From: a virus
Lineage: Duplodnaviria > Heunggongvirae > Uroviricota > Caudoviricetes
Strand: one strand, 5' to 3'
Virus record (IMG/VR): IMGVR_UViG_2585427971_000006
Length of the DNA stretch: 38,221 nt
The notes under the pieces: generated by a model
The model's database searches: none
Told to the model about the DNA's origin: nothing
Seen by the model: only the letters and a program-made list of their open reading frames with translations
Position numbers and translations under genes: made by a program
In this document: one piece after another, positions 1 through 18,546 of the stretch
How positions within the stretch are numbered: the stretch's first letter is position 1
Layout: every line of letters starts with the position of its first letter

Positions 1-171
1 TATCGCGCCCTCAACAATGAGTTTTGTGATGCGGTGCCTGGTGCCTCCAGGTGACGTTAACCAGTTAACAATTAACGCCGGATACAGAGAATCCACCCAT
101 AACACTGTTTTTGGTTTTAACTGTTCCGCGTGCGCTTAGCCGCATTCACCGCATCACAAAATTCACTTTAA

Positions 172-227
172 AAAGGGAGGCAGAGCAGTCACGGAGTAAA
201 ACTGATACCGCCAAACGTCACCAGAAA
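172..227 (-). ncRNA. dicF: DicF-like sRNA (cell-division inhibitor sRNA of Qin-type prophages)
   Basis: Reverse complement of 171-227 reads TTTCTGGTGACGTTTGGCGGTATCAGTTTTACTCCGTGACTGCTCTGCCTCCCTTTTT, matching my memory of E. coli DicF except about one base; ends in a U-run; lies downstream of the ydfC-like ORF on the same strand as in Qin. Ends are approximate. Confidence 0.7.
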
Positions 228-567
228 ATTGATAACAGAGGGCGTTGCAGCGGGGTTGTCACTTAAGCGTATGGTCAACCTGACAACCCGGTGTCCTCAA
301 CGGGGAAGGAATAACCCCGCCATACTTACCGCCGCGCCATTTCGCGTAGTGCCACAACCGGAAGCGCACGGTCGACGAAAATTTAACGACAGGCTATCTA
401 TGAACCAGCTACCTCGCCGTGCGCTTTCGCGTTATGGTCTGACTTTTCATGGAAATATCCTTTCAGTAAACTGTCAGTGCCGGATGCTCACCCGTGTCCG
501 GCGCACGCACTCCACCTCACCCGTGGAGAACTCCTTAATTACCAACCTTAGCTTCGTTGGTTAGCTA

Positions 568-786
568 TTAACGCTGGTATGTAATCATTCTGGCAATGCT
601 TAATGCCGCTGCTTTTTCCAGCCTGGTGATATCCTGCTCCAGAGCGGACAGATTTTCAGCCTGCTTAGCCCTGGCTTCATTGGCCCATTTCAGATCCTGC
701 GCTGCATTAATTTTCTGGCGCATCCACTCATAAAGTTCATCATCGGTATAGTCTGGCGCGATGATGACGGGTTCTCGTTTCTGCAT
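568..786 (-). CDS. ydfC: small prophage protein, YdfC-like (72 aa)
   Basis: Track ORF of 72 aa; size and position (last ORF before the DicF-like sRNA, same strand as the repressor) match Qin ydfC; sequence identity not verified. Confidence 0.6.
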   Translation of the reverse strand: MQKREPVIIAPDYTDDELYEWMRQKINAAQDLKWANEARAKQAENLSALEQDITRLEKAAALSIARMITYQR

Positions 787-815
787 ACTGATTCCTCGCG
801 GTGCTGCTTCGCTTA

Positions 816-944
816 TCAGCCGTTAGATTTTGCCGAGCTGGAAAGCGCCTGTTTAAACTCACTGAAGCTGAGAGCTTCTTCGCCTTCGGTAAGGCCTTCG
901 AAGTATTCTTCGTAAGCCTTTTTCATGATTGTGTCGAAATCCAT
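816..944 (-). CDS. ydfB: small prophage protein, YdfB-like (42 aa), absent from the ORF track
   Basis: Manual translation MDFDTIMKKAYEEYFEGLTEGEEALSFSEFKQALSSSAKSNG; ATG at 944-942 sits 2 nt after the stop of the upstream ORF; 42 aa matches Qin ydfB in size and position. Confidence 0.5.
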   Translation of the reverse strand: MDFDTIMKKAYEEYFEGLTEGEEALSFSEFKQALSSSAKSNG

Positions 945-945
945 A

Positions 946-1101
946 TCACTCACCTGAGTTTCTTTCCAGCCAGCGACGGGCACCATTTTCGGTTTTAAAC
1001 GTTTTGCTTTTGGTATACGTCATCGCGGTGAATGTGCCGTCCTGGTTGGGAAACACGCCGTACACCAGAGATTCGTTGTTGCCAAGATCGATAGTATCCA
1101 T
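946..1101 (-). CDS. ydfA: small prophage protein, YdfA-like (51 aa from internal ATG of track ORF 946..1182)
   Basis: Internal Met gives MDTIDLGNNESLVYGVFPNQDGTFTAMTYTKSKTFKTENGARRWLERNSGE, exactly 51 aa as expected for YdfA; first gene downstream of the repressor on the same strand. Confidence 0.55.
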   Translation of the reverse strand: MDTIDLGNNESLVYGVFPNQDGTFTAMTYTKSKTFKTENGARRWLERNSGE

Positions 1102-1287
1102 GTTGACCTCATTTCCCCTTAACGCCGGGGTAGCGGAACAAAAACCTGCTGCATAGTTATTAAAGTTGAACCCTGCCGTCATGTTCTTACGCCTCGGGCT
1201 GGCTACTTAACCCCTGACCACTGCCTGGTAACTCGAAGTATTGCCCTGCATTCTGTGGGGCGGGGTGGGTTGGTATGAAAAGAAGGA

Positions 1288-1324
1288 TACCCATAGGTAT
1301 TTAAAAAGTAAATACCCATGGGTA
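1288..1324. promoter_or_regulatory. pair of operator-like palindromes (OL-like) between repressor 3' end and the ydfA-like operon
   Basis: TACCCATAGGTA (1288-1299) and perfect 12-bp palindrome TACCCATGGGTA (1313-1324), about 25 bp centre to centre, in an AT-rich intergenic region. Confidence 0.4.
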
Positions 1325-1366
1325 AATTTTTGCGGTGTCTTAACTGGTGACTAGTTGTTTGGTGAG

Positions 1367-1786
1367 CTATGATGCGTTTTGTGCTTTCTTTTTACGGATT
1401 TCTTCGTAGATCATATTGTAATACTGTTTTTTCTCTTCAAGAGTTTTTAATAATTTATCCGCTTCACTTTCTGGCAGTTCGTCTAAGAGATCTAAAAAAA
1501 TACGTTGTCGTGGCGTTAGAACCCTTGTTTCATAACTGGAGGCTGTGTTCGTTGATGATGAAACGATACCATCCATCCATCCCCGGGGTAACCCAAAGGA
1601 CTCTTCGATAATCTCCACCATATCATCAGCGATCCGTTTTTTTCCCTTTTTCCCCTCTGGGTACAACATTCTTGATACATAAGAAGGCTCGCGCCCGATC
1701 TTTCTGGCCACGTTAACCGCTTTACCATCGCATTTCTCATCACGAATTTTGATGAGTTGCTGTCGTCTAAATTCATATTTGTCCAT
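1367..1786 (-). CDS. CI-like prophage repressor, helix-turn-helix (139 aa)
   Basis: Divergent from the cro-like gene; HTH-like segment AVNVARKIGREPSYVSRML; occupies the dicA/racR position; not similar to my recollection of K-12 DicA. Confidence 0.75.
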   Translation of the reverse strand: MDKYEFRRQQLIKIRDEKCDGKAVNVARKIGREPSYVSRMLYPEGKKGKKRIADDMVEIIEESFGLPRGWMDGIVSSSTNTASSYETRVLTPRQRIFLDLLDELPESEADKLLKTLEEKKQYYNMIYEEIRKKKAQNAS

Positions 1787-1821
1787 AGGTAAATAATAGA
1801 TGCGATTACCGCAAGGTAAAC

Positions 1822-1862
1822 AACCTGTGGGTATTGACTTTTGTTTACCTGTGGGTATTCTT
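1822..1862 (+). promoter_or_regulatory. OR-like operators overlapping a rightward promoter for the cro-like gene
   Basis: Two related half-palindromic sites ACCTGTGGGTAT (about 1823-1834 and 1847-1858) sharing the CCxxTGGGTA core of the leftward sites; TTGACT at 1834-1839 with a possible -10 TATTCT at 1856-1861; AAGGAG RBS follows at 1876-1881. Confidence 0.4.
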
Positions 1863-1886
1863 TGCTGTGTTTACTAAGGAGTAGCT

Positions 1887-2168
1887 ATGGAAGAATTAAG
1901 AATATTTCTCAATTCTCTTTCGTCAGATGAACAGCGTATGTTTGCATGCGAGTGTGGTACCAGCATCGGTTATCTAAGAAAGGCATTGAGTAAAGGTCAA
2001 GTGTTAGGGGCATCGTTATGTGTCCTTATTGAGCGAGCCAGTAATGGTGAAGTTACACGTCAGCAACTAAGGCCTTTTGATTGGATGAATATTTGGCCCG
2101 AGCTGGAAGATACCAAAACGTTAACACAACAACTTTCTAGGAGCTTGATTCATGAAAATCAAGCATGA
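1887..2168 (+). CDS. Cro/YdaS-like HTH regulator (93 aa)
   Basis: AAGGAG RBS 6 nt upstream of ATG; motif GTSIGYLRKALSKGQVLGASLCVLIERASNGEVTRQQLRPFDW typical of the YdaS/Cro-like family encoded opposite prophage repressors. Confidence 0.75.
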   Translation: MEELRIFLNSLSSDEQRMFACECGTSIGYLRKALSKGQVLGASLCVLIERASNGEVTRQQLRPFDWMNIWPELEDTKTLTQQLSRSLIHENQA

Positions 2169-2577
2169 ACACATCCGCATGGCGATGAATGTCTGGGCGC
2201 ATCCGGACGGCGAAAAAGTGCCGGCTGCGAAAATTACCAAAGCGTATTTCGAGCTGGGAATGACGTTCCCGGAACTGTATGACGACAGCCATCCGGAAGC
2301 CCTGGCCCGTAATACCCAGAAAATTTTCCGTTGGCTGGATAAAGACACCCCTGATGCTGTTGAAAAAATGCAGGCTCTGTTACCGGCGATCGAAAAGGCG
2401 ATGCCGCCTTTGCTGGTGGCCCGTATGCGCAGCCACAGTTCTGAATATTACCGTGAGATCGTCGAACGGAGGGATCGGCTGGTGAAGGATGTCGATGATT
2501 TTGTTGCGTCAGCGGTTGTTTTGTATGACCAGATGAATCGCGGCGGCCCGGCAGGGAATGCTGTGGTGATGCACTAA
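2152..2577 (+). CDS. YdaT-like protein (141 aa)
   Basis: Overlaps the 3' end of the cro-like gene by 17 nt, RBS AGGAG at 2138-2142; arrangement repressor / YdaS-like / YdaT-like as in Rac; family assignment from memory. Confidence 0.65.
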   Translation: MKIKHEHIRMAMNVWAHPDGEKVPAAKITKAYFELGMTFPELYDDSHPEALARNTQKIFRWLDKDTPDAVEKMQALLPAIEKAMPPLLVARMRSHSSEYYREIVERRDRLVKDVDDFVASAVVLYDQMNRGGPAGNAVVMH

Positions 2578-2599
2578 AAGCACGGTGTTCGGGGGTTTT

Positions 2600-3562
2600 A
2601 TGAGCAGCAAGCTTCATGGTCTTGTCTGGGAAGGGTGCGCCTTCACCGGCATGATCTTATCCAGGGTGGCGGTTATGGCCCGTCTTGCAGACTACAGCAA
2701 TGACGAGGGCGTGTCATGGCCTGCCATTGAAACTATCCGGCGTCAGATCGGTGCAAGAAGTGAATCCACAGTGAAATCGGCTATTGCAGAACTGGCGAAA
2801 GAGGGCTGGCTGACGAAGGAAGAGCGTAAGGTCGGTGGGCGTAATGTAAGCAATATCTATCGGCTTAATGTGGAAAAACTCGAAGCAGCTGCGGCGGCGG
2901 CGCGTGAGTCATATAAACCGAAAAGAAAAATTAGCCCGGCAAAAAATGACCCGTTAACAGTTGACCCGTCAAATATTGACCCCTCAACGGTTGACCCGTC
3001 AAATTTTGATGGATCAACTGTTGATAAAAAACTGCCGATTAGGGGGCCGATGATTGACCCCGATCCGTCAGTATTAAAACCTGATCCGTCAGATAAAAGA
3101 TCTTCTTGTCCGGACGCTTCGCAACCGGACCCGCAGACGGCTGAACAGGATTTTTTAACCCGACACCCTGACGCGGTTGTGTTCAGTGCGAAAAAACGCC
3201 AGTGGGGAAGTCAGGAAGATTTGGTGTGCGCACAGTGGATCTGGGGACGAATCGTGAGTCTTTACGAGCAGGCGGCCAGCTATGATGGCGAGATCACTAG
3301 ACCGAAAGAACCCAACTGGACAGCATGGGCCAATGACGTTCGCACAATGCGGATGCTGGATGGCAGAACTCACAGACAAATTTGTGAAATGTTTGGGCGT
3401 CTCCAGCGGGATTCGTTCTGGGTAAAAAACATCATGAGTCCGGCAAAACTCCGGGAAAAATGGGATGAACTGGTTATCCGCCTGGGGCGTTCGCCTGCGC
3501 AGCGTTGCGTGAATCACATTTCTGAACCGGACACTGAAATTCCGCCGGGCTTCAGGGGGTAA
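2600..3562 (+). CDS. phage replication initiation protein (N-terminal winged-helix, C-terminal DnaT/O-like domain)
   Basis: ATG at 2600 preceded by GGGGG; central DPS-rich repetitive linker encoded by iteron-like DNA repeats; C-terminal segment WGRIVSLYEQAASYDGEITRPKEPNWTAWANDVRTMRMLDGRTHRQI resembles the DnaT-type replication domain; track ORF starts at GTG 2585. Confidence 0.75.
   Translation: MSSKLHGLVWEGCAFTGMILSRVAVMARLADYSNDEGVSWPAIETIRRQIGARSESTVKSAIAELAKEGWLTKEERKVGGRNVSNIYRLNVEKLEAAAAAARESYKPKRKISPAKNDPLTVDPSNIDPSTVDPSNFDGSTVDKKLPIRGPMIDPDPSVLKPDPSDKRSSCPDASQPDPQTAEQDFLTRHPDAVVFSAKKRQWGSQEDLVCAQWIWGRIVSLYEQAASYDGEITRPKEPNWTAWANDVRTMRMLDGRTHRQICEMFGRLQRDSFWVKNIMSPAKLREKWDELVIRLGRSPAQRCVNHISEPDTEIPPGFRG
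2946..3005. repeat. four iteron-like 15-bp repeats (TGACCCGTCAA core) inside the replication gene, followed by an AT-rich tract: candidate ori
   Basis: Repeats begin at 2946, 2961, 2976 and 2991 with exact 15-bp periodicity; AT-rich stretch at 3001-3040; two further degenerate copies near 3054 and 3081. Confidence 0.55.
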
Positions 3563-3602
3563 GTGTTAATTTCTGGTCATGAGGTAATTTTCAGGAGGGC
3601 TT

Positions 3603-4025
3603 GTGGCAAAAGTTTTTACACAAGAAGAGCGGGAAAAAATTAAAGGGCAGGTTGTTGAACTCGTACGCCAGAGTGGGCGCGAGACGTTACGACAACTGGA
3701 AACTAAAACTGGGGCAACAAGATATCTGATGAGCGTTCTCGCAAGAGAGCTGGTTGCCAGCGGCGATGTATACAACTCTGGTTACGGGTTATTCCCGTCT
3801 GAACAGGCGCGTAAGGACTGGCAAAATGCCCGTAAAAAGCTCTCAAGGGCAAAGCCGAAGAAACCATCTGCGGTTGATCCGGACCTTATCTGGTCATTAC
3901 CAGACGGAGAAATACGCCGCTACGACAGGCGCCTGAATATAATCTGTCGCGAGTGCCGGAAGAGCGAAGCTATGCAGCGTGTACTGGCTTTCTATCAGGG
4001 TAATTTTCAGGAGGCGGTACTGTGA
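3603..4025 (+). CDS. hypothetical early-region protein (140 aa)
   Basis: GTG start 5 nt after AGGAGG (3592-3597); protein-like composition; no family recognised. Confidence 0.55.
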   Translation: MAKVFTQEEREKIKGQVVELVRQSGRETLRQLETKTGATRYLMSVLARELVASGDVYNSGYGLFPSEQARKDWQNARKKLSRAKPKKPSAVDPDLIWSLPDGEIRRYDRRLNIICRECRKSEAMQRVLAFYQGNFQEAVL

Positions 4026-4082
4026 GTGAAATTAGCTATCAGGCTTCAATTGCCGCTGGCATTCGCATCAAAGGAGAGGAGC

Positions 4083-4439
4083 ATGGAAATAAAACCAGAG
4101 GATGAGTTAAGCAATATCGTTTTATTTCCGGTAAAAGAGGATGACCCTCGTAATCAGGTTAATTTTCTTTATGAGCCATCGGAAAGACCATATTGCCATC
4201 ACGCTTCTGTCCGGGTTGACGAAAAAGAGCGTCAGGTCCGCTGTAAAATCTGCGGTGCAGTTGTGGAGCCATTTGACTGGATGCTCTCTGTGGCGAAAAG
4301 AGAAACCAGACTGGCAGATGATGTAAGGCTCTTGCGCCAGGAGGAACGGGAAAGGCGAAAAAATATAGAAAAGCTAATTCAGATTGAGCGTAACGCGAAA
4401 GCGCGGATACGCAGGGTGACAAAATCCAGAACTGAATAA
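4083..4439 (+). CDS. hypothetical protein with Cys/His zinc-ribbon-like motif (118 aa)
   Basis: ATG at 4083 after AAAGGAGAGG; motif CHHASVRVDEKERQVRCKICGAVVEPFDW; track ORF extends upstream to 4026 without an RBS. Confidence 0.55.
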   Translation: MEIKPEDELSNIVLFPVKEDDPRNQVNFLYEPSERPYCHHASVRVDEKERQVRCKICGAVVEPFDWMLSVAKRETRLADDVRLLRQEERERRKNIEKLIQIERNAKARIRRVTKSRTE

Positions 4440-4532
4440 TTAAATTTAGCACTGTTAAAAATTTAATCCTTAACCGGAGGGATTTCTGCACCCTCAGAAC
4501 ATCAGGAGGCCGCCCGAAAGGGCGGTAGTTAA

Positions 4533-4715
4533 ATGCGAAAGTTTAAAATAATTATTGAAACGGGAATAGCCGGTGGAGATTTCGAGGATGAATTCGAAGT
4601 GGATAATGATGCGACGCCTGATGAAATACATGACGAAGCAAAAGATATTGTCTTTAACTACTGCAATTACTCATATCACGAAATAAAAGACGAAGAGGAA
4701 GAACAAAATGGCTGA
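4533..4715 (+). CDS. small acidic protein (60 aa), nin-like region
   Basis: Track ORF; strongly acidic; a GC hairpin GCCGCCCGAAAGGGCGG sits between an AGGAGG (4504-4509) and the ATG. Confidence 0.45.
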   Translation: MRKFKIIIETGIAGGDFEDEFEVDNDATPDEIHDEAKDIVFNYCNYSYHEIKDEEEEQNG

Positions 4716-4884
4716 TTTTGGTTCAACTAAATACAACGTCAGTTTTGAAGAATGGCATGAACTGTTAATGGACTATGCAGAGTTACGTGGTGGCAGTGCT
4801 GCTGATGCTGAAGCATGGCGTGATGATTATGAAGCAGGAAAAACTCCGGTCGAAGCATATTGTGATGAGTGGGGCGATGAATGA
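4708..4884 (+). CDS. small protein (58 aa), absent from the ORF track
   Basis: Manual translation MADFGSTKYNVSFEEWHELLMDYAELRGGSAADAEAWRDDYEAGKTPVEAYCDEWGDE; start overlaps the upstream stop; stop overlaps the next ATG (ATGA at 4881-4884). Confidence 0.45.
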   Translation: MADFGSTKYNVSFEEWHELLMDYAELRGGSAADAEAWRDDYEAGKTPVEAYCDEWGDE

Positions 4885-5197
4885 GCGAGGTTAATTATCA
4901 GGAAGGGCATGAAACGGCGGGGCAAGCAAAAACAGTGGCATGGCGATATCGCTACGTGAAAAAAAAGGCGTTACGGACTTTCAGGGGAAGTAGTGGTCTG
5001 GTGACTGGAAATATGTACCGAAAAAAGAGGATTGTAACGACAGGCCGAACTATGAAATTCAGGCCTTATTCACTGCCCCGCCAGTCCCGGTTACATCAGA
5101 AGAACTGGTTAAAGCTGTGCACTTTTATGAACAACTAAAACGCGAAAATCCACCAGCATCCGGAAACCTGATTACAGATTCCCAGATAAGGCAATGA
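4881..5197 (+). pseudogene. nin-region gene disrupted by a frame change, or fused by -1 frameshifting
   Basis: Frame-0 ORF 4881..5138 turns into basic low-complexity sequence, while frame 2 (open 4994..5197) encodes protein-like sequence EDCNDRPNYEIQALFTAPPVPVTSEELVKAVHFYEQLKRENPPASGNLITDSQIRQ without a start codon; A_AAA_AAG heptamer at 5021-5027 and an 8-A run at 4959-4966. Confidence 0.3.
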
Positions 5198-5367
5198 GCT
5201 ACCTGACGCAGAACGGGCTGATAAGTATGGGGAATGTTTTACGATGAATATTTAGACTAAAGAGTTTGTAACGCTATGTAAGTGATTTTTTCTGGTTTAG
5301 ATATTTATATGTCCGGCCAAATTGAGGTGTGTTTAAATGTAATTGCACATTGATTGTAGGAGGAATA

Positions 5368-5547
5368 ATGAAAAACGCATTGCAGTTTTTGTTTGTTGCG
5401 TTCTGGTTGTTCGTATCATGTATGCCCATCATCTTCACAGCAAGGTATATGGAAAAAGTTGATGTTTTGATATTAATATTTGGATATATAAATGCCCTTT
5501 TTTTAGGGGTGTTCATGGCGGTCATGTGCATTGAATACTGGCGGTAA
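5368..5547 (+). CDS. small two-helix membrane protein (59 aa) in an AT-rich islet
   Basis: AGGAGG at 5358-5363 before ATG 5368; hydrophobic segments FLFVAFWLFVSCMPIIF and ILIFGYINALFLGVFMAVMCI; track ORF starts further upstream. Confidence 0.45.
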   Translation: MKNALQFLFVAFWLFVSCMPIIFTARYMEKVDVLILIFGYINALFLGVFMAVMCIEYWR

Positions 5548-5602
5548 ATACAGCGAACGCCATTGGTTTAGTTGGATATTTACTGTGCCGGACAAAAACG
5601 GT

Positions 5603-5630
5603 TTGCGGGGAAATCTTAGTTAAGTAGAAT
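5603..5630 (+). promoter_or_regulatory. sigma70-like promoter of the hok-family mRNA
   Basis: TTGCGG (5603-5608), 16-nt spacer, TAGAAT (5625-5630); predicted start near 5637 coincides with the 5' element that is complementary to the 3' end of the mRNA. Confidence 0.45.
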
Positions 5631-5749
5631 GACTGCGGGTGCTTGAGGCTATCTGTCTCAGGCATGAACACCAAAAGGCAGATAGAGAAAAGCCCCAGTT
5701 AACATTACGCGTCCTGCAAGACGCTTAACATTAATCTGAGGCCATATCT

Positions 5750-5809
5750 ATGCGACACATAGAGATTAGCCTCTTACGGACCGAAAGGTCAAGGAGAAGC
5801 AGGCTATGA
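5750..5809 (+). CDS. short leader ORF overlapping the hok start (mok-like, 19 codons)
   Basis: ATG at 5750 with GAGG 8 nt upstream; stop TGA at 5807-5809 overlaps the hok ATG at 5806, as expected for translational coupling. Confidence 0.35.
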   Translation: MRHIEISLLRTERSRRSRL

Positions 5810-5961
5810 AGCAGCAAAAGGCGATGTTAATCGCCCTGATCGTCATCTGTTTAACCGTCATAGTGACGGCACTGGTAACGAGGAAAGACCTCTGCGAGGT
5901 ACGAATCCGAACCGGCCAGACGGAGGTCGCTGTCTTCACAGCTTACGAACCTGAGGAGTAA
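5806..5961 (+). CDS. hokD: Hok/Gef-family type I toxin (51 aa)
   Basis: Manual translation MKQQKAMLIALIVICLTVIVTALVTRKDLCEVRIRTGQTEVAVFTAYEPEE, absent from the ORF track; matches my memory of RelF/HokD and closely resembles Gef; AAGGAGAAG RBS; hokD-rem-ydfU-quuQ order as in Qin. Confidence 0.85.
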   Translation: MKQQKAMLIALIVICLTVIVTALVTRKDLCEVRIRTGQTEVAVFTAYEPEE

Positions 5962-6029
5962 GAGACCTGGCGGGGGAGAAATCCCTCGCCACCTCTGATG
6001 TGTCAGGCATCCTCAACGCACCCGCACTT

Positions 6030-6056
6030 AACCCGCTTCGGCGGGTTTTGTTTTTT
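6030..6056 (+). terminator. intrinsic terminator of the hok mRNA
   Basis: CCCGCTTCGGCGGG hairpin followed by TTTTGTTTTTT. Confidence 0.6.
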
Positions 6057-6128
6057 CCTGGCATTCTGGTTTACAATTCGCACGTCAGCCTGAACACCTG
6101 ACACCTGCTGCGCCAGCAGAGAAAACAG

Positions 6129-6401
6129 ATGGCGCACAAAACCAAATTTCACAATTCTGATACCGACCTTGCCATCCGGCATGAGCGGCGTTCACACGCA
6201 TTTAAAACCGACTGGTACCAACACCCACCATGTACTGAAGAACAGGCCGAATGGCTGATTCATTCTTACCGCAGGCGCGGGTTCGAGGTTAAGAAAGCTC
6301 TCAGTCTCGACTATCGGCACTGGATAATCTCTGTCAGGCTGCCTTATTCCGAACGCCCACCACGTCCGTCCCGCACTTTCCAGCAACGGATCTGGAGGTA
6401 A
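6129..6401 (+). CDS. hypothetical protein (90 aa), in the position of Qin rem
   Basis: Track ORF; stop 1 nt before the start of the DUF968 gene; weak RBS; assignment by position only. Confidence 0.4.
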   Translation: MAHKTKFHNSDTDLAIRHERRSHAFKTDWYQHPPCTEEQAEWLIHSYRRRGFEVKKALSLDYRHWIISVRLPYSERPPRPSRTFQQRIWR

Positions 6402-6402
6402 C

Positions 6403-14515: not shown

Positions 14516-16272
14516 TGGCAAAAGTGGCTGACGGGATCCGCTACGCCGAACGTGTTGTTGCAGGAGAAATTGTTGCTGGCGAATTTGTCCGCCTGGCCTG
14601 CCAGCGTTTTCTTGATGATCTGAAGTACGGCGAAAAGCGGGGGATTTATTTCAGTGAACCCCGTGCGCAGCACATCCTGAATTTCTACAAATTTGTGCCT
14701 CATGTAAAAGGGGCACTGGCAGGCCAGCCCATTGAGTTGATGGACTGGCATGTATTTATCCTCATTAATATTTTTGGTTTTGTCATTCCGCTGGTCAATG
14801 AAGAAACCGGGGAAGTTGTCATGCGCAGCGATGGCAGCGGACGTCCGGTGATGGTGCGCCGGTTCCGGACGGCGTACAACGAAGTCGCCCGTAAAAACGC
14901 AAAATCAACCCTGTCATCGGGTATCGGCCTGTATATGACGGGGGCAGATAGTGAAGGCGGAGCTGAGGTGTATTCAGCCGCAACCACGCGTGACCAGGCC
15001 AGAATCGTGTTTGAAGACGCCAAAAATATGGTCAGAAAAGCCCGGTCGACACTCGGGCGGTTGTTTGATTTCAACAAGCTGGCGATTTACCAGGAGCAGA
15101 GCGCATCAAAATTTGAACCGCTTTCCTCGGATGCAAACAACCTGGACGGTCTGAACATCCACTGCGCCATTATTGATGAGCTGCATGCACATAAAACCCG
15201 CGACGTGTGGGACGTTCTGGAAACGGCAACCGGTGCCCGTCTGCAGTCCCTGTTATTTGGTATCACCACGGCTGGCTTTAACAAGGAAGGGATTTGTTAC
15301 GAGCAGCGTGATTACGCCATCAAGGTATTGCGAGGCTATAACAGCGACGTGGAGGGCGCTGTAAAAGACGACTCTTACTTTGCGATCATTTACACGCTTG
15401 ATGAGGGAGATGATCCGTTTGATGAAACGGTCTGGCAGAAAGCGAATCCTGGCCTGGGCATCTGTAAACGCTGGGATGATCTGCGTCGTCTGGCGAAAAA
15501 AGCGAAGGAGCAGGTCTCTGCGCGGGTGAATTTTTTTACCAAACACATGAATGTGTGGGTCACTGCCGAATCTGCCTGGATGGATATGATTAAGTGGGAG
15601 AAGTGCGAATACATTGCTCCACAACATGAGCTGAAAACATATCCCATGTGGGTCGGCGTCGACCTTGCTCATAAGATTGATATCTGTGCGGCGGCAAAAC
15701 TCTGGCGAACCGATAACGGACATGTTCATGCTGATTTTAAATTCTGGCTTCCGGAAGGACGGCTGGAACGATGCTCGCGGCAGCAGGCAGAACTTTACCG
15801 GAAGTGGGCGGAGATGGATAAGCTCATCCTGACGGATGGTGATGTTATCGATCATGCTCAGATAAAAAGTGACTTACTGGAATGGATTGGCGGTGAAAAC
15901 CTCAGGGAACTGGGATTTGACCCGTGGAGCGCAATGCAGTTCAGTCTGGCACTGGCTGAAGAAGGGATACCGCTGGTGGAGGTTCCGCAGACGGTCCGCA
16001 ATCTGTCAGAGGCCATGAAGGAAACGGAATCACTGGTTTATGCCGGGCGTTTCCATCACAGCAATCATCCGGTCATGAACTGGATGATGTCTAACGTTAC
16101 TGTAAAACCGGACAAAAACGACAACATCTTCCCGAATAAATCCACGCCGGAAGCCAAAATCGACGGCCCTGTTGCGCTTTTTACAGCCATGAGCCGCTTT
16201 CTGGTAAATGGCGGGGGCGTGAATGACTTTCTGTCCACGCTTGATCCTGATGAGGACCTGTTAATTCTGTGA
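14515..16272 (+). CDS. terminase large subunit (585 aa)
   Basis: Walker A-like VARKNAKSTL, EVYSAATTRDQARIVFEDA segment, nuclease-type C-terminal half; HK97-like order TerS-TerL-portal. Confidence 0.85.
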   Translation: MAKVADGIRYAERVVAGEIVAGEFVRLACQRFLDDLKYGEKRGIYFSEPRAQHILNFYKFVPHVKGALAGQPIELMDWHVFILINIFGFVIPLVNEETGEVVMRSDGSGRPVMVRRFRTAYNEVARKNAKSTLSSGIGLYMTGADSEGGAEVYSAATTRDQARIVFEDAKNMVRKARSTLGRLFDFNKLAIYQEQSASKFEPLSSDANNLDGLNIHCAIIDELHAHKTRDVWDVLETATGARLQSLLFGITTAGFNKEGICYEQRDYAIKVLRGYNSDVEGAVKDDSYFAIIYTLDEGDDPFDETVWQKANPGLGICKRWDDLRRLAKKAKEQVSARVNFFTKHMNVWVTAESAWMDMIKWEKCEYIAPQHELKTYPMWVGVDLAHKIDICAAAKLWRTDNGHVHADFKFWLPEGRLERCSRQQAELYRKWAEMDKLILTDGDVIDHAQIKSDLLEWIGGENLRELGFDPWSAMQFSLALAEEGIPLVEVPQTVRNLSEAMKETESLVYAGRFHHSNHPVMNWMMSNVTVKPDKNDNIFPNKSTPEAKIDGPVALFTAMSRFLVNGGGVNDFLSTLDPDEDLLIL

Positions 16273-16289
16273 AACAGCTTATTACTGAT

Positions 16290-16430
16290 ATGACCGGGCT
16301 GATCGGTTTCGGTCTGCTCACTGCTGGCGTTTATCTGTATGCAGGTCTGCCAGCGTCTCTGATGCTGTCTGGCTGTTTGTTGCTGCTTTATGCACTGGTG
16401 GTGTCCATGAGGAGAAAACATGCTTCTTGA
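16290..16430 (+). CDS. small hydrophobic protein between terminase and portal (46 aa from ATG 16290, or 53 aa from GTG 16269), absent from the ORF track
   Basis: Manual translation MTGLIGFGLLTAGVYLYAGLPASLMLSGCLLLLYALVVSMRRKHAS; fills the gap between the TerL stop (16272) and the portal start (16420), overlapping the portal start by 11 nt. Confidence 0.35.
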   Translation: MTGLIGFGLLTAGVYLYAGLPASLMLSGCLLLLYALVVSMRRKHAS

Positions 16431-17646
16431 TGCTCTGTTTCGCAGTGAGCCTCTGGAAAATCCCTCGGTTCCGGTAACCGGAGAGGCCGCAGAGACGGAT
16501 AATATTTTTGCCCGGGATGTGTATGTCAGTCCGGAAACGTCCATGAGGCTGGCTGCTGTCTATGCCTGTATTTATGTTATTTCATCCAGTGTGGCTCAGA
16601 TGCCCCTGCATGTGATGCGAAAAACGAATGAGCATGTTCAGCCGGCACGCGATCACCCGTTGTTCTGGCTCGTTCATGATGAACCGAATGCCTGGCAGAC
16701 CAGCTATAAGTGGCGGGAACTGAAGCAGCGTCATGTGCTGGGGTGGGGCAATGGTTATACGTGGGTGAAACGTAATCGTCGTGGCGAGGTTACCAGTCTT
16801 GAATGCTGTATGCCATGGGAAACCACGTTACTTAACACCGGAGGGCGTCATACCTACGGTGTGTATAACGAAGAGGGTGCATTTGCGGTAAGTCCGGACG
16901 ACATGATCCATATCAGGGCGCTGGGAAACAATCAGAAAATGGGACTGAGTCCGATCATGCAGCATGCTGAAACCATTGGTATGGGAATGAGTGGTCAGCA
17001 GTATACCAGTGCTTTTTTTAACGGTAATGCCCGTCCTGCCGGGATTATTTCTGTGAAAAATGAACTGAACGAACAGAGTTGGAGCAGGCTCAAGAATATG
17101 TGGCAGCGGGCGGTGACAGCGCTTCGCAGCCAGGAAAATAAAACCATGTTGCTGCCTGCGCAACTGGATTACCGCGCTCTGACAGTTTCTCCGGTGGATG
17201 CTCAGATCATTGATATGACCAAGCTGAACCGGTCGATGATTGCCGGGATTTTTAATGTCCCGGCGCACATGATTAATGACCTGGAAAAAGCCACATTTTC
17301 GAATATTACGCAGCAGGCGATTCAGTTTGTTCGCTACACGATGATGCCCTGGGTTGCGAACTGGGAGCAGGAGCTTAACCGTCGCCTGTTTACCCGTACA
17401 GAACGGGCTGCCGGGTATTACGTTCGTTTCAACCTCACGGGGTTGCTCCGTGGGACCCCACAGGAGCGTGCGCAGTTCTATCACTTTGCCATTACAGATG
17501 GCTGGATGAGTCGGAATGAAGCCAGGGCATTTGAGGATATGAACCCGGTTGACGGTCTGGATGAAATGCTGGTCAGCGTAAATGCAGCAAATCCGTTGAA
17601 TAACTTTAAAGATACGAAAGGCAAAGAGGAAAAGAACGATGAATGA
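16420..17646 (+). CDS. portal protein (HK97-type, 408 aa)
   Basis: Position after TerL, size and portal-like sequence; overlaps the protease start. Confidence 0.85.
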   Translation: MLLDALFRSEPLENPSVPVTGEAAETDNIFARDVYVSPETSMRLAAVYACIYVISSSVAQMPLHVMRKTNEHVQPARDHPLFWLVHDEPNAWQTSYKWRELKQRHVLGWGNGYTWVKRNRRGEVTSLECCMPWETTLLNTGGRHTYGVYNEEGAFAVSPDDMIHIRALGNNQKMGLSPIMQHAETIGMGMSGQQYTSAFFNGNARPAGIISVKNELNEQSWSRLKNMWQRAVTALRSQENKTMLLPAQLDYRALTVSPVDAQIIDMTKLNRSMIAGIFNVPAHMINDLEKATFSNITQQAIQFVRYTMMPWVANWEQELNRRLFTRTERAAGYYVRFNLTGLLRGTPQERAQFYHFAITDGWMSRNEARAFEDMNPVDGLDEMLVSVNAANPLNNFKDTKGKEEKNDE

Positions 17647-18238
17647 CCGTGAAACGCGCTGTTACAGCGGGGAGGTGCGGGCGGAACAATATGATAATGC
17701 CCCGACCCACATTCTGGGCTATGGCTCGGTATTTAACAGTCGTTCAGAACCTCTGTGGGGATTTCGTGAAATCATCAAGCCGGGGGCTTTTGATGATGTA
17801 CTGAATGATGATGTACGTGGCTTGTTTAATCATGATCCTAATTTCATTCTCGGACGAAGTTCTGCCGGCACGTTGTCATTGTCGGTGGATGAACGCGGTT
17901 TACGTTATGACATTGTTGCACCGGATACTCCGACTATTTGTGACCTGGTGCTATCTCCAATGTTGCGTGGTGACATTAATCAGTCCTCGTTCGCGTTTCG
18001 TGTCGCCCGTGACGGAGAGAGCTGGTATGAAGACGACGAGGGGATTGTTATCCGGGAAATCACGCGCATTTCTCGTCTGTATGACGTCAGCCCGGTGACA
18101 TATCCGGCCTATCAGGACGCAGACTCTGGTGTCCGCTCAATGAAAGCCTGGCAGGAAGCGCGGGCGAGTGGTGCGCTGAAGAAAGCTGTTAACGAACGAA
18201 TGGCGCGTGAGCGTCTTTTGACCCTTCTTAATGCATAA
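17639..18238 (+). CDS. prohead maturation protease (HK97-type, 199 aa)
   Basis: Position between portal and capsid genes; HK97-protease-like sequence from memory. Confidence 0.8.
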   Translation: MNDRETRCYSGEVRAEQYDNAPTHILGYGSVFNSRSEPLWGFREIIKPGAFDDVLNDDVRGLFNHDPNFILGRSSAGTLSLSVDERGLRYDIVAPDTPTICDLVLSPMLRGDINQSSFAFRVARDGESWYEDDEGIVIREITRISRLYDVSPVTYPAYQDADSGVRSMKAWQEARASGALKKAVNERMARERLLTLLNA

Positions 18239-18252
18239 GGATACTACTGACG

Positions 18253-18546
18253 ATGAAACTTCATGAGATGAAGCAAAAACGAAACACCATTGCAAAGGAT
18301 ATGCGTGCACTGCATGAAAAAATTGGTGATAACGCATGGACTGATGAGCAACGGGCAGAGTGGAACAGGGCGAAAGCTGAGCTGGATGCGCTGGATGAGC
18401 AAATCGCCCGTGAAGAAGAGTTGCGCCGTCAGGATCAGGCATATGTGGATGAGTCCGGGCCGGAAGAGCGCCAGAATAATGAGGCGGAGAACGGGAAAAA
18501 GGCGGTGGAAGAGAAGCGCGCTGCGGCATTATCATTGACACCATGA
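18253..18546 (+). CDS. capsid scaffolding / delta-domain-like coiled-coil protein (97 aa)
   Basis: Highly charged coiled-coil-like sequence (DEQRAEWNRAKAELDALDEQIAREEELRRQDQ); stop overlaps the capsid ATG (ATGA at 18543-18546). Confidence 0.6.
   Translation: MKLHEMKQKRNTIAKDMRALHEKIGDNAWTDEQRAEWNRAKAELDALDEQIAREEELRRQDQAYVDESGPEERQNNEAENGKKAVEEKRAAALSLTP

What the first reader, a model, noticed from the sequence alone, without database searches (positions are those of the whole stretch)
5600..6060. Hok/Gef-family type I toxin locus with an apparently complete regulatory architecture
A 51-aa Hok-family toxin (5806-5961), missing from the ORF track, is preceded by a promoter (TTGCGG-16-TAGAAT, 5603-5630) and a short coupled leader ORF (5750-5809). 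The 5' element GCGGGTGCTTGAGG (5636-5649) is complementary to CCTCAACGCACCCGC near the 3' end (6011-6025), as expected for the tac/fbi fold-back pairing of hok mRNAs, and an intrinsic terminator follows (6030-6056). A candidate Sok-like antisense promoter lies on the minus strand (-35 TTGACC = plus 5787-5792). From memory the K-12 hokD copy lacks its own 5' region, so this may be a fully regulated hokD-type locus.
Basis: partly seen in the sequence, partly recalled or inferred. Interest (0 to 1): 0.6.

Follow-up and report, generated by a model that had tools for sequence, protein, structure and literature searches.

The report
Intact prophage hokD/mok/sok toxin–antitoxin locus
This is an ordinary, apparently complete copy of the well-known hok/sok RNA-regulated toxin–antitoxin module, sitting in a lambda-like prophage of E. 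coli; the same sequence occurs in many sequenced E. coli genomes, so it is real but not new.

Summary
Window 5806-5961 (+) encodes a 51-aa Hok/Gef peptide (Pfam E 1.2e-23). Its coding sequence matches K-12 hokD/relF.

Unlike K-12, where homology starts only 14 nt before the ATG, this copy keeps the whole hok leader:
- a full-length Rfam RF01794 hit (106.7 bits);
- a conserved -10 hexamer;
- the mok leader ORF;
- the anti-SD (ucb) element;
- the 5'-3' tac/fbi fold-back pairing (13-14 bp, one bulge);
- a 3' hairpin and a terminator;
- on the minus strand, a Sok gene (promoter, 5' tail, terminator hairpin) at 5688-5756.

The tac/fbi pairing appears in the minimum-energy fold. It lies 44-52 nt after the stop codon in 34 distinct loci from several genera, and it shows compensatory changes.

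The 541-nt locus is 100% identical in at least 30 listed E. coli chromosomes (EC958, JJ1886, H10407). RefSeq annotates only the hokD coding sequence there. It is 91% identical to hokW-sokW of phage 933W/Sp5, which has been characterised experimentally.

One minority detail: mok here has 19 codons and its TGA stop overlaps the hok ATG. Already known; low interest.

The parts
5603..5630 (+). hok mRNA promoter: -35 TTGCGG (5603-5608), 16-nt spacer, -10 TAGAAT (5625-5630)
   Evidence: Read from the sequence. The -35 matches only 3/6 and failed the generic scan. A TAnnAT-like hexamer lies 5 nt upstream of GC(G)GGG in nearly all related loci listed. Homology among diverse hok loci begins at about 5617-5635. 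Promoter activity is inferred.
5636..6056 (+). full-length mok-hok mRNA; the start (about 5636-5637) and the end at the terminator are predicted
   Evidence: The Rfam model begins at 5637. The -10 ends at 5630. Terminator at 6030-6047 plus T-run. Fold -176.2 kcal/mol, z -7.4. The ends are inferred, not mapped.
5635..5648 (+). tac (translational activator) element, GCGGGTGCTTGAGG
   Evidence: Pairs with 6011-6025 in the MFE fold. Alternative partners are 5655-5665 (metastable hairpin, -17.6 kcal/mol) and the ucb region (-10.5 kcal/mol). The Rfam consensus contains the tac/ucb stem.
5692..5698 (+). ucb / anti-SD box, GCCCCAG
   Evidence: Pairs with CUGAGGC (5736-5742), which includes the mok SD, in the full-length MFE fold and in the RNAalifold consensus. 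Covariation at alignment columns 62/102: AU 9, GC 6.
5738..5741 (+). mok Shine-Dalgarno sequence, GAGG
   Evidence: Lies 8 nt upstream of the ATG at 5750. GAGGC is invariant in the alignment of homologues.
5750..5809 (+). mok leader ORF: 19 codons, with the TGA stop overlapping the hok ATG (ATGA)
   Evidence: A mok ATG 56-58 nt upstream of the hok ATG is found in nearly all related loci tabulated. The 56-nt spacing that gives this short frame is a minority (3 of 38 unique loci with a mok start).
5769..5773 (+). dcb box, GCCUC, which pairs with the mok SD in the processed (open) conformation
   Evidence: Rfam consensus structure. Duplex -9.3 kcal/mol. Naming follows PMC9841398.
5791..5796 (+). 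hok Shine-Dalgarno sequence, AAGGAG
   Evidence: Read from the sequence. Conserved in nearly all loci tabulated. Overlaps the Sok -35 on the other strand.
5806..5961 (+). hok (hokD-type) toxin coding sequence, 51 aa
   Evidence: Pfam PF01848 E 1.2e-23. PHROG 251 E 2.8e-33. The window and K-12 hokD rows match throughout the coding sequence, and the peptides are identical. RefSeq names it hokD.
5968..5991 (+). 10-bp GC-rich 3' hairpin; predicted 3' end protector of the processed mRNA
   Evidence: Present in the MFE fold. Conserved with compensatory changes in the consensus (columns 339-360). The role is inferred from the R1 model (PMC9841398).
6011..6025 (+). fbi (fold-back inhibition) element, CCTCAACGCACCCGC
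   Evidence: It starts 44-52 nt after the stop codon in 34 unique loci. Compensatory changes occur at five tac positions.
6030..6056 (+). intrinsic terminator of the hok mRNA
   Evidence: Terminator scan: 7-bp stem at 6030-6047 followed by TTGTTTTTTC.
5688..5756 (-). Sok antisense RNA gene (predicted 69 nt): 5' single-stranded tail, long hairpin, GGGGCUUUU end
   Evidence: These are the coordinates of the annotated 933W sokW mapped through the alignment. Fold -31.8 kcal/mol, z -5.2. The same architecture is seen in nearly all of 38 related loci. No transcript was observed here.
5763..5792 (-). Sok promoter: -35 TTGACC (5787-5792), 18-nt spacer, -10 TAATCT (5763-5768)
   Evidence: It is positionally conserved across the related loci. 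The annotated 5' end of K-12 sokC lies 8 nt inside mokC, which fits a start at about 5756 here. The generic scan did not detect it.

Best explanation
Window 5603-6056 is an intact type I toxin-antitoxin module of the hok/sok family. It is the full-length form of E. coli hokD (relF) and is closely related to hokW-sokW of Stx phages. It lies in the early-right region of a lambdoid, Qin/Rac-like prophage, between the replication genes and DUF968-RusA-Q.

**Mechanism, by homology with plasmid R1 hok/sok and hokW-sokW:**
1. A weak constitutive promoter makes a mok-hok mRNA of about 420 nt.
2. While the mRNA is being made, its 5' tac element sits in a local metastable hairpin.
3. In the finished transcript, tac pairs with fbi near the 3' end, and the ucb box masks the mok Shine-Dalgarno sequence. 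This form is neither translated nor bound by Sok.
4. Slow 3' trimming back to the GC-rich hairpin (5968-5991) removes fbi. tac then pairs with ucb, the mok SD is exposed, and the Sok target forms.
5. In cells carrying the locus, the abundant, unstable 69-nt Sok RNA made from the opposite strand pairs across the mok start, and the duplex is cut by RNase III.
6. If Sok is lost, ribosomes translate the 19-codon mok ORF into the hok SD and start codon (mok stop TGA overlaps hok ATG). This allows Hok synthesis, and Hok inserts in the inner membrane and collapses it.

**Shown here:** all sequence elements, their positions, the predicted folds, their conservation and covariation, and homology to annotated and characterised loci.

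**Inferred:** transcription start and end points, 3' processing, Sok expression and instability, mok-hok coupling, toxicity, and the biological role (prophage maintenance and/or help with lysis at induction).
For: **Toxin:** Pfam HOK_GEF E 1.2e-23 and PHROG 251. The peptide is identical to K-12 HokD.

**Leader:** Rfam RF01794 matches full-length on the hok-sense strand at 106.7 bits. The same model hits the hok-sense strand at K-12 hokC and hokB and at 933W hokW.

**tac/fbi pairing:**
- It is in the MFE fold, z -7.4.
- 0 of 300 shuffles reach the duplex energy.
- fbi starts 44-52 nt after the stop in 34 unique loci from Escherichia, Kluyvera, Citrobacter, Pantoea, Photorhabdus and K-12 hokB.
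- U-A/C-G and G-C/A-U exchanges occur at five positions.
- RNAalifold predicts the helix de novo.
- 97.3% of cells are paired against 37-51% when partners are slid, and the covariation score is 0.240 against at most 0.108.

**Negative controls behave as expected:** IS186-disrupted K-12 hokC and hokE have no fbi at that place, and K-12 hokD has no tac.

**Sok:** the annotated 933W sokW maps to 5688-5756 on the minus strand. Promoter, 5' tail and terminator hairpin are conserved in nearly all of 38 loci (mean z -3.8; window z -5.2).

**mok:** a start codon with an SD lies 56-58 nt before hok in nearly all related loci tabulated. Mutational data for R1 show that mok need only be translated as far as the hok start (PMC9841398).

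**Distribution:** the identical 541-nt locus is present in at least 30 listed E. coli chromosomes, and 3440 of 5426 genomes hold a place covering at least 80% of it.
Against: No expression data for this locus were available, so neither RNA has been seen here.

Both promoters match the consensus poorly: the hok -35 is 3/6 and the Sok -10 is 3/6. The generic scan found none.

The MFE fold of a 3'-truncated RNA (5636-6010) gave the metastable 5' hairpin rather than the tac/ucb stem expected for the active form. The refolding step is therefore not reproduced by simple energy minimisation.

The mok frame here (19 codons, 56-nt spacing) is a minority form: 3 of 38 unique loci. It has not been tested.

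Native chromosomal hokA, hokB and hokC loci tested earlier did not mediate post-segregational killing, as summarised in bioRxiv 10.1101/2025.08.07.668861. An intact architecture therefore does not guarantee activity.
Confidence: 0.9

Rival explanations
1. The locus is structurally intact but functionally silent. It would be a decaying remnant like the K-12 chromosomal hok loci, with Hok never made from its own signals.
For: - Native chromosomal hokA, hokB and hokC loci did not mediate killing in earlier tests (summarised).
- The short mok frame could be the result of a 2-nt deletion relative to the Rac-type copy.
- Both promoters are weak by consensus.
- Visibly decayed copies exist: L011 has a degenerate leader, L049 a damaged coding sequence, and L053 a frameshifted one.
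Against: - Every regulatory element is present and pairs as expected.
- The mok stop lies after the hok SD and on the hok start codon, which R1 mutational data indicate is sufficient.
- The same 19-codon arrangement occurs independently in hokC-type loci of E. ruysiae and E. whittamii.
- The sequence is 100% conserved in many unrelated strains.
- The 91%-identical hokW-sokW is active.
Confidence: 0.12
2. The module is active, but its main role is not maintenance of the prophage by post-segregational killing. Instead it would be a phage-benefiting function at induction (earlier membrane damage, faster lysis and release), or abortive-infection defence against other phages.
For: - For hokW-sokW in Sp5, sokW RNA disappears after mitomycin C in a RecA-dependent way.
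- HokW appears about 1 h before endolysin R.
- Deletion of the locus halves phage release.
- Here hok lies on the same strand as the flanking replication-side genes and Q.
Against: - The position in the phage genome differs from hokW. In 933W it lies at 58.4-58.7 kb of the 61.7-kb record, next to the large ORF L0134 and on the opposite strand. Regulation need not transfer.
- Nothing in the sequence discriminates between these roles.
- It is not known whether this prophage is inducible.
Confidence: 0.35
3. As in K-12, hok is expressed only as the distal gene of a longer upstream transcript, and the 5'-3' complementarity and antisense signals are fortuitous.
For: In K-12, hokD is co-transcribed with relBE (Gotfredsen and Gerdes 1998, as cited in PMC5120126). 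Read-through from the prophage early operon is conceivable because the orientation is the same.
Against: - The complementarity is beaten by 0 of 300 shuffles.
- It keeps its position and covaries across genera.
- Homology between independent hok loci begins at the -10 hexamer and ends at the terminator, which marks a self-contained module.
- The Rfam match is full-length.
Confidence: 0.02

Closest known systems
hokW-mokW-sokW of Stx2 phage 933W / Sakai prophage Sp5 (AF125520; Takada et al. 2021, PMC8621323)
   Same: - 91% nucleotide identity over window 5591-6033.
- The tac, ucb, fbi and Sok regions are alike, and 63 of 71 sokW positions are identical.
- Both lie in a lambdoid prophage.
- Toxin, antitoxin RNA, and RNase III and Hfq dependence were shown experimentally for hokW-sokW.
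   Different: - The Hok C-terminus differs (VDYESEK against TAYEPEE).
- mokW is in frame with hokW (57-nt spacing, 70 codons), whereas here mok has 19 codons and ends on the hok ATG.
- The 933W copy diverges right after fbi and has a different 3' end.
- The position in the phage genome differs: 58.4-58.7 kb of the 61.7-kb 933W record against upstream of DUF968-RusA-Q here.
E. coli K-12 hokD (relF), Qin prophage
   Same: - The 51-aa peptide and coding sequence match, and identity is 98.9% over 5792-6055, including the 3' hairpin, fbi and terminator.
- The same downstream neighbours are present: DUF968/ydfU and the Q antiterminator ydfT.
   Different: K-12 has relBE immediately upstream, and homology stops 14 nt before the ATG. 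K-12 therefore lacks the promoter, tac, ucb, mok and sok. It also carries rem between hokD and ydfU. The literature attributes the truncation to relBE integration (PMC6379469).
hok/sok (parB) of plasmid R1, the paradigm of the family
   Same: The set of elements and the logic are the same: tac/fbi end-pairing, ucb masking the mok SD, a metastable 5' hairpin, mok-coupled translation, and a cis-antisense Sok over the mok start (described in PMC9841398). All of these elements were located here.
   Different: - The toxins share only about 43-44% identity (tblastn against IncF plasmids; PMC8621323).
- In R1, mok has 70 codons and overlaps hok (PMC9841398).
- R1 is a plasmid, with demonstrated post-segregational killing. 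Here the host replicon is a prophage, and the role is unproven.
K-12 hokC/mokC/sokC (gef) and hokB/mokB/sokB
   Same: Rfam RF01794 hits at 118 and 110 bits on the hok-sense strand. The window locus is 76% identical to hokC at the nucleotide level. The annotated sokC and sokB RNAs occupy the same place relative to mok as the Sok predicted here.
   Different: The Sok hairpin is about 20 nt shorter in hokC and hokB. K-12 hokC has IS186 in place of fbi. These loci are chromosomal and not in a prophage.

Membership tests
[quoted passage not shown] | A toxin of about 50 aa with the Hok/Gef signature (N-terminal membrane helix, conserved Cys and C-terminal motif) | tested here: met
   Pfam HOK_GEF E 1.2e-23, covering profile positions 1-42 of 42. 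PHROG 251 E 2.8e-33. The NCBIfam Hok subfamily model scores below its cutoff (48.5 against 73 bits), but RefSeq names the identical protein HokD.
[quoted passage not shown] | A structured 5' leader of about 170 nt homologous to hok leaders | tested here: met
   RF01794 matches full-length (model positions 1-157) at 106.7 bits against a gathering score of 59, E 7.9e-25, at 5637-5808 on the plus strand.
[quoted passage not shown] | Long-range tac/fbi pairing of the mRNA 5' end with the 3' UTR, conserved by covariation | tested here: met
   MFE fold, shuffle test, 34 loci with compensatory changes at five positions, RNAalifold, and pair counts with slid controls.
[quoted passage not shown] | A mok leader ORF with its own SD, masked by ucb, whose translation reaches the hok start region | tested here: met
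   ATG at 5750, SD at 5738-5741, stop at 5807-5809 overlapping the hok ATG. The ucb/SD helix is in the MFE and consensus folds with covariation. Actual translational coupling was not tested.
[quoted passage not shown] | A cis-encoded antisense Sok RNA overlapping the mok start, with its own promoter and terminator | tested here: inconclusive
   At the sequence level this is met: promoter, 5' tail and terminator hairpin are conserved in nearly all of 38 loci, and the gene coincides with the annotated sokW. The transcript itself cannot be observed with these tools, and the -10 is a weak consensus match.
[quoted passage not shown] | Toxicity of Hok, neutralisation by Sok, 3' processing of the mRNA, and RNase III cleavage of the duplex | not testable with these tools
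   Shown for the 91%-identical hokW-sokW (PMC8621323) and for R1 (PMC9841398), not for this copy.
hokD (relF) orthologue of the Qin-type prophage | Same toxin sequence and same prophage neighbourhood as K-12 hokD | tested here: met
   The peptide is identical, and identity is 98.9% over 5792-6055. The downstream DUF968/ydfU is 83% identical, and a Q antiterminator follows.

The most novel reading that the evidence does not exclude
Because this hok-sok module lies in the prophage's early-right region on the same strand as the flanking genes, read-through transcription at induction could run head-on into the Sok promoter and silence it. It would also produce 5'-extended hok transcripts whose tac element is no longer at the 5' end. 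This would give a direct mechanism for induction-triggered Sok loss and Hok synthesis, a phenomenon reported but left unexplained for hokW-sokW. In this reading the 19-codon mok ORF, ending on the hok ATG, would be a termination-reinitiation variant of the coupling. The hok terminator would also double as a nin-region terminator that makes Q expression depend on antitermination.
Probability: 0.1. Interest if true: 0.4.

Novelty: already known. Interest (0 to 1): 0.12.

Why it matters
It matters little beyond annotation. The locus shows what the ancestral, complete hokD module looks like next to the truncated K-12 copy. It also shows that RefSeq records annotate only the toxin coding sequence there; the mok ORF, the Sok RNA and the mRNA elements are left unmarked.

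The module is carried in a prophage of clinically important lineages, ST131 (EC958, JJ1886) and ETEC H10407. Any role in prophage stability, lysis timing or phage defence would be relevant there, but that role is not established by this analysis.

The three-way variation in the mok reading frame among near-identical loci is natural-variation support for the published view that only ribosome transit through mok matters, not the Mok peptide.

Tried and rejected
- **Generic sigma-70 scan:** it found no promoter on either strand because both candidate promoters have one hexamer at 3/6. I relied on positional conservation instead.
- **The search for related loci with an alignment of the five K-12-type Hok proteins:** I used the single protein instead.
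- **RNAduplex on long flanks, about 170 nt against 130 nt:** gave sprawling, uninformative duplexes and weak z-scores. I replaced it with an 18-nt tac oligo against the 3' flank.
- **MAFFT on concatenated tac and fbi mini-sequences:** it misplaced the one-base bulge in the Photorhabdus rows. I tabulated pairs by tac position in a script instead, and counted pairs on full-length alignment A4.
- **Cognate versus non-cognate tac/fbi energies:** only weakly discriminating (-23.5 against -21.4 kcal/mol; cognate better in 470 of 816 comparisons), because most positions are invariant. I did not use this as evidence.
- **Folding a 3'-truncated RNA:** it did not yield the tac/ucb 'open' structure. The refolding step remains inferred from R1.
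- **Papers:** Steif and Meyer 2012 is not held in the library. Pedersen and Gerdes 1999 was not read directly, and its content is cited only through later papers.
- **Rejected ideas:** that the 5'-3' complementarity is chance; that the Rfam 'sok' hit on the plus strand means Sok is encoded on the plus strand (the model matches the hok-sense strand at K-12 hokC and hokB too, where the annotated sokC and sokB lie opposite); and that the weak isrK hit (27 bits against a gathering score of 50) indicates an IsrK homologue.
Full report
**1. Observation**

- The ORF 5806-5961 encodes MKQQKAMLIALIVICLTVIVTALVTRKDLCEVRIRTGQTEVAVFTAYEPEE.
- It matches Pfam HOK_GEF over the whole model (E 1.2e-23) and PHROG 251 'MokW-like host killing' (E 2.8e-33).
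- An ATG at 5750, preceded by GAGG at 5738-5741, opens a 19-codon ORF. Its TGA (5807-5809) overlaps the hok ATG.
- TTGCGG-16-TAGAAT lies at 5603-5630.
- The terminator scan finds a stem at 6030-6047 followed by a T-run.
It is complementary to 6011-6025, with C6017 bulged.
- The generic promoter scan reported nothing in 5300-6300. The hok -35 (TTGCGG) and the Sok -10 (TAATCT) each match only 3 of 6 positions.

**2. Is it more than chance?**

Rfam model RF01794 matches 5637-5808 on the plus strand end to end (positions 1-157) at 106.7 bits. The gathering score is 59.

Folding 5636-6056 gives -176.2 kcal/mol (z -7.4). In the minimum-energy structure the first 13 bases pair with 6011-6024, and GCCCCAG (5692-5698) pairs with CUGAGGC (5736-5742), which masks the mok SD.

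An 18-nt tac oligo folded against the 130 nt after the stop codon gives -27.7 kcal/mol at 49-66 nt after the stop. None of 300 shuffles reaches this value.

**3. Related loci and covariation**

A scan of species-representative genomes returned 53 loci from Escherichia, Shigella, Kluyvera, Citrobacter, Pseudocitrobacter, Pantoea, Erwinia and Photorhabdus. I added K-12 hokA to hokE, 933W hokW and a Rac-type phage copy.

In 34 unique tac/fbi combinations, the partner of tac starts 44-52 nt after the hok stop. The pairs change in a compensatory way:
- tac position 7: U-A in 22 loci, C-G in 10;
- tac position 15: G-C in 19 loci, A-U in 15;
- single exchanges at positions 10, 13 and 14.

RNAalifold on 15 full-length mRNAs, not fitted to any model, predicts the tac/fbi helix, the ucb/SD helix and the 3' hairpin. 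Of 79 predicted pairs, 24 have double-sided changes.

Counting only the tac/fbi and ucb/SD pairs on that alignment gives:
- 97.3% of cells paired, against 37-51% when the partners are slid by 1-3 columns;
- 5 pairs with double-sided changes, against 1;
- a covariation score of 0.240, against at most 0.108.

The controls behave as expected. K-12 hokE and hokC, which have IS186 right after the gene, have no fbi at that place. K-12 hokD has no tac.

**4. The antisense gene**

Phage 933W annotates sokW. Through the alignment it maps to window 5688-5756 on the minus strand, with 63 of 71 positions identical.

That strand reads TTGACC (complement of 5787-5792), an 18-nt spacer, TAATCT (complement of 5763-5768), six bases, and then the RNA. 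The RNA folds into a short 5' tail, a long hairpin and GGGGCUUUU (-31.8 kcal/mol, z -5.2).

The same arrangement recurs in nearly all of 38 unique loci, although the hairpin sequence and length differ. It consists of a -35 within CTCCTTG(A)CC overlapping the hok SD, a spacer ending in GTAAGAGGC, a -10 such as TAAyCT or CACTCT, a tail, a hairpin and a U-rich end.

The annotated K-12 sokC and sokB lie at the equivalent place.

The Rfam family named 'sok' matches the hok-sense strand, here and at K-12 hokC and hokB, where the annotated sokC and sokB lie on the opposite strand. The plus-strand hit is therefore the hok leader, not Sok itself.

**5. The hok promoter**

The -35 is not conserved. A TAnnAT-like hexamer lies 5 nt upstream of GC(G)GGG in nearly all loci listed (TAGAAT, TATAAT, TACAAT, TATATT, TAGGAT and others). 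Similarity between independent hok loci starts at about 5617-5635 and ends at about 6023-6055. This marks a self-contained module from the -10 to the terminator.

**6. mok**

A mok start with an SD lies 56, 57 or 58 nt before the hok ATG in nearly all loci tabulated.
- The 57-nt spacing, in 26 unique loci including 933W and K-12 hokC, puts mok in frame with hok (68-70 codons).
- The 58-nt spacing, in 9 loci including the Rac-type copy and hokB, gives an overlapping out-of-frame mok.
- The 56-nt spacing, in the window and in hokC-type loci of E. ruysiae and E. whittamii, gives the 19-codon ORF that ends on the hok ATG.

Deep mutational data for R1 show that mok must be translated up to the hok SD and start but not beyond (PMC9841398). 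The short frame is therefore compatible with function. This is inferred and not tested.

**7. Context and identity**

The window is a lambdoid prophage essentially identical to one in E. coli ST131 EC958. It is 100% identical over 1-18530 and 99.995% over the rest, apart from one 133-nt segment that EC958 has and the window lacks.

hok lies after the replication-side genes (YdaT-family, HTH, DUF977) and before a PHROG 1212 ORF, DUF968, RusA and the Q antiterminator, all on the same strand.

K-12 Qin has the same order: hokD, rem, ydfU (DUF968), ydfT (Q). There, relBE abuts hokD, and similarity to the window covers only 5792-6055 (98.9%) and 6112-7355 (83%). The literature states that relBE integration truncated the ancestral mok-hokD of about 70 codons (PMC6379469). 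It also states that hokD lacks canonical TA components because of genomic rearrangement (PMC12214031).

**8. How common and how known**

- The 541-nt query is 100% identical in at least 30 listed chromosomes (EC958, JJ1886, H10407 and others).
- 375 records have a best place at 99% identity or more.
- 3440 of 5426 complete E. coli genomes have a place covering at least 80% of it.
- RefSeq names the coding sequence hokD.
- 102 phage records match, among them 933W with hokW, mokW and sokW annotated.
- hokW-sokW was shown to be a working type I TA system that depends on RNase III and Hfq. Its Sok RNA vanishes on induction, and it speeds lysis and doubles phage release (PMC8621323).
- A recent survey found hok enriched in prophages (bioRxiv 10.1101/2025.08.07.668861).

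**9. Mechanism**

The best-supported reading is the canonical hok/sok mechanism given under Best explanation.

Steps shown here are the presence, position, predicted folding, conservation and covariation of tac, the metastable partner, ucb, the mok SD, dcb, mok, the hok SD, hok, the 3' hairpin, fbi, the terminator and the Sok gene.

Steps inferred from R1 and hokW are the transcription start and end points, 3' trimming and refolding, Sok turnover and RNase III cleavage, mok-hok coupling, membrane toxicity and the biological role.

The simple fold of a truncated RNA did not reproduce the open conformation. This is the weakest computational point.

**10. Verdict**

The novelty class is 'already known'. 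The only slightly unusual detail is the minority 19-codon mok frame. Interest is low.

Noticed in passing
window 5637-5808 (+); L005 902-1054 (-); L007 2067-2218 (-): The Rfam family RF01794, named 'sok antitoxin', matches the hok-sense strand (the mRNA leader). In K-12 the annotated sokC and sokB lie on the opposite strand. A hit to this family therefore marks the hok leader and gives the wrong strand for Sok.
   Followed up: yes
window 5750-5809; loci L009-L054: Among closely related hok loci, the mok start lies 56, 57 or 58 nt before the hok ATG. mok is therefore read in all three frames relative to hok: in-frame extension, overlapping out of frame, or a 19-codon ORF ending on the hok ATG. 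This suggests the Mok peptide sequence is not under selection.
   Followed up: partly
window 5944-5947 (Tyr47 codon TAC followed by G): The hok coding sequence has a TACG at codon 47. Published work reports low-level A-to-I editing of hokD mRNA (6%) that recodes the Tyr aligned with HokB position 46 to Cys (PMC12214031). The local fold here is weak (-4.5 kcal/mol).
   Followed up: partly
window 6003-6182 (-): RefSeq annotates a 59-aa hypothetical protein (WP_001112736.1) on the minus strand. It runs across the hok fbi element and terminator and overlaps the start of the 90-aa plus-strand ORF. It looks like a spurious call.
   Followed up: no
window 5970-6051 (+): There is a weak Rfam match of the hok 3' UTR (GC hairpin plus terminator) to isrK, a Salmonella Hfq-binding sRNA family. 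It scores 27.2 bits against a gathering score of 50, E 0.0019. It is probably only a two-hairpin resemblance.
   Followed up: no
window 5329-5547 (+) and 6129-6401 (+): Two small ORFs flank the module. The upstream 72-aa hydrophobic ORF has no family hit and is not annotated in EC958. The downstream 90-aa ORF matches PHROG 1212 (unknown function, E 4.4e-36).
   Followed up: partly
L011, L049, L053 (E. coli ECMA0423, Shigella flexneri SFBU0723): Some genomes carry visibly decayed copies. L011 has a leader with deletions and no recognisable tac. L049 has a damaged hok coding sequence. L053 is a frameshifted hokC-type copy. Several strains carry 3 or more copies, and the E. coli collection shows up to 10 places per genome.
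   Followed up: no
window 18530/18531: The window is 100% identical to the EC958 prophage over 1-18530 and 99.995% over the rest. EC958 has 133 extra bases at this junction. According to the EC958 annotation, the prophage also carries tRNA-Ile and tRNA-Arg after Q, an IraM anti-adaptor gene, iss, and an IS200 transposase among the tail-fibre genes.
   Followed up: no
L023 (Acinetobacter idrijaensis), L028 (Xanthomonas pisi), L061 (Candidatus Scatousia MAG); phage hit H35 (Actinobacillus phage vB_Apl-pPE4): Near-identical hokD-type sequences appear on tiny contigs (275-431 nt) of non-enterobacterial assemblies, on a 2995-nt MAG contig, and in an 'Actinobacillus' phage record (95% identity). These look like contamination or mis-assigned hosts rather than real distribution.
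   Followed up: no
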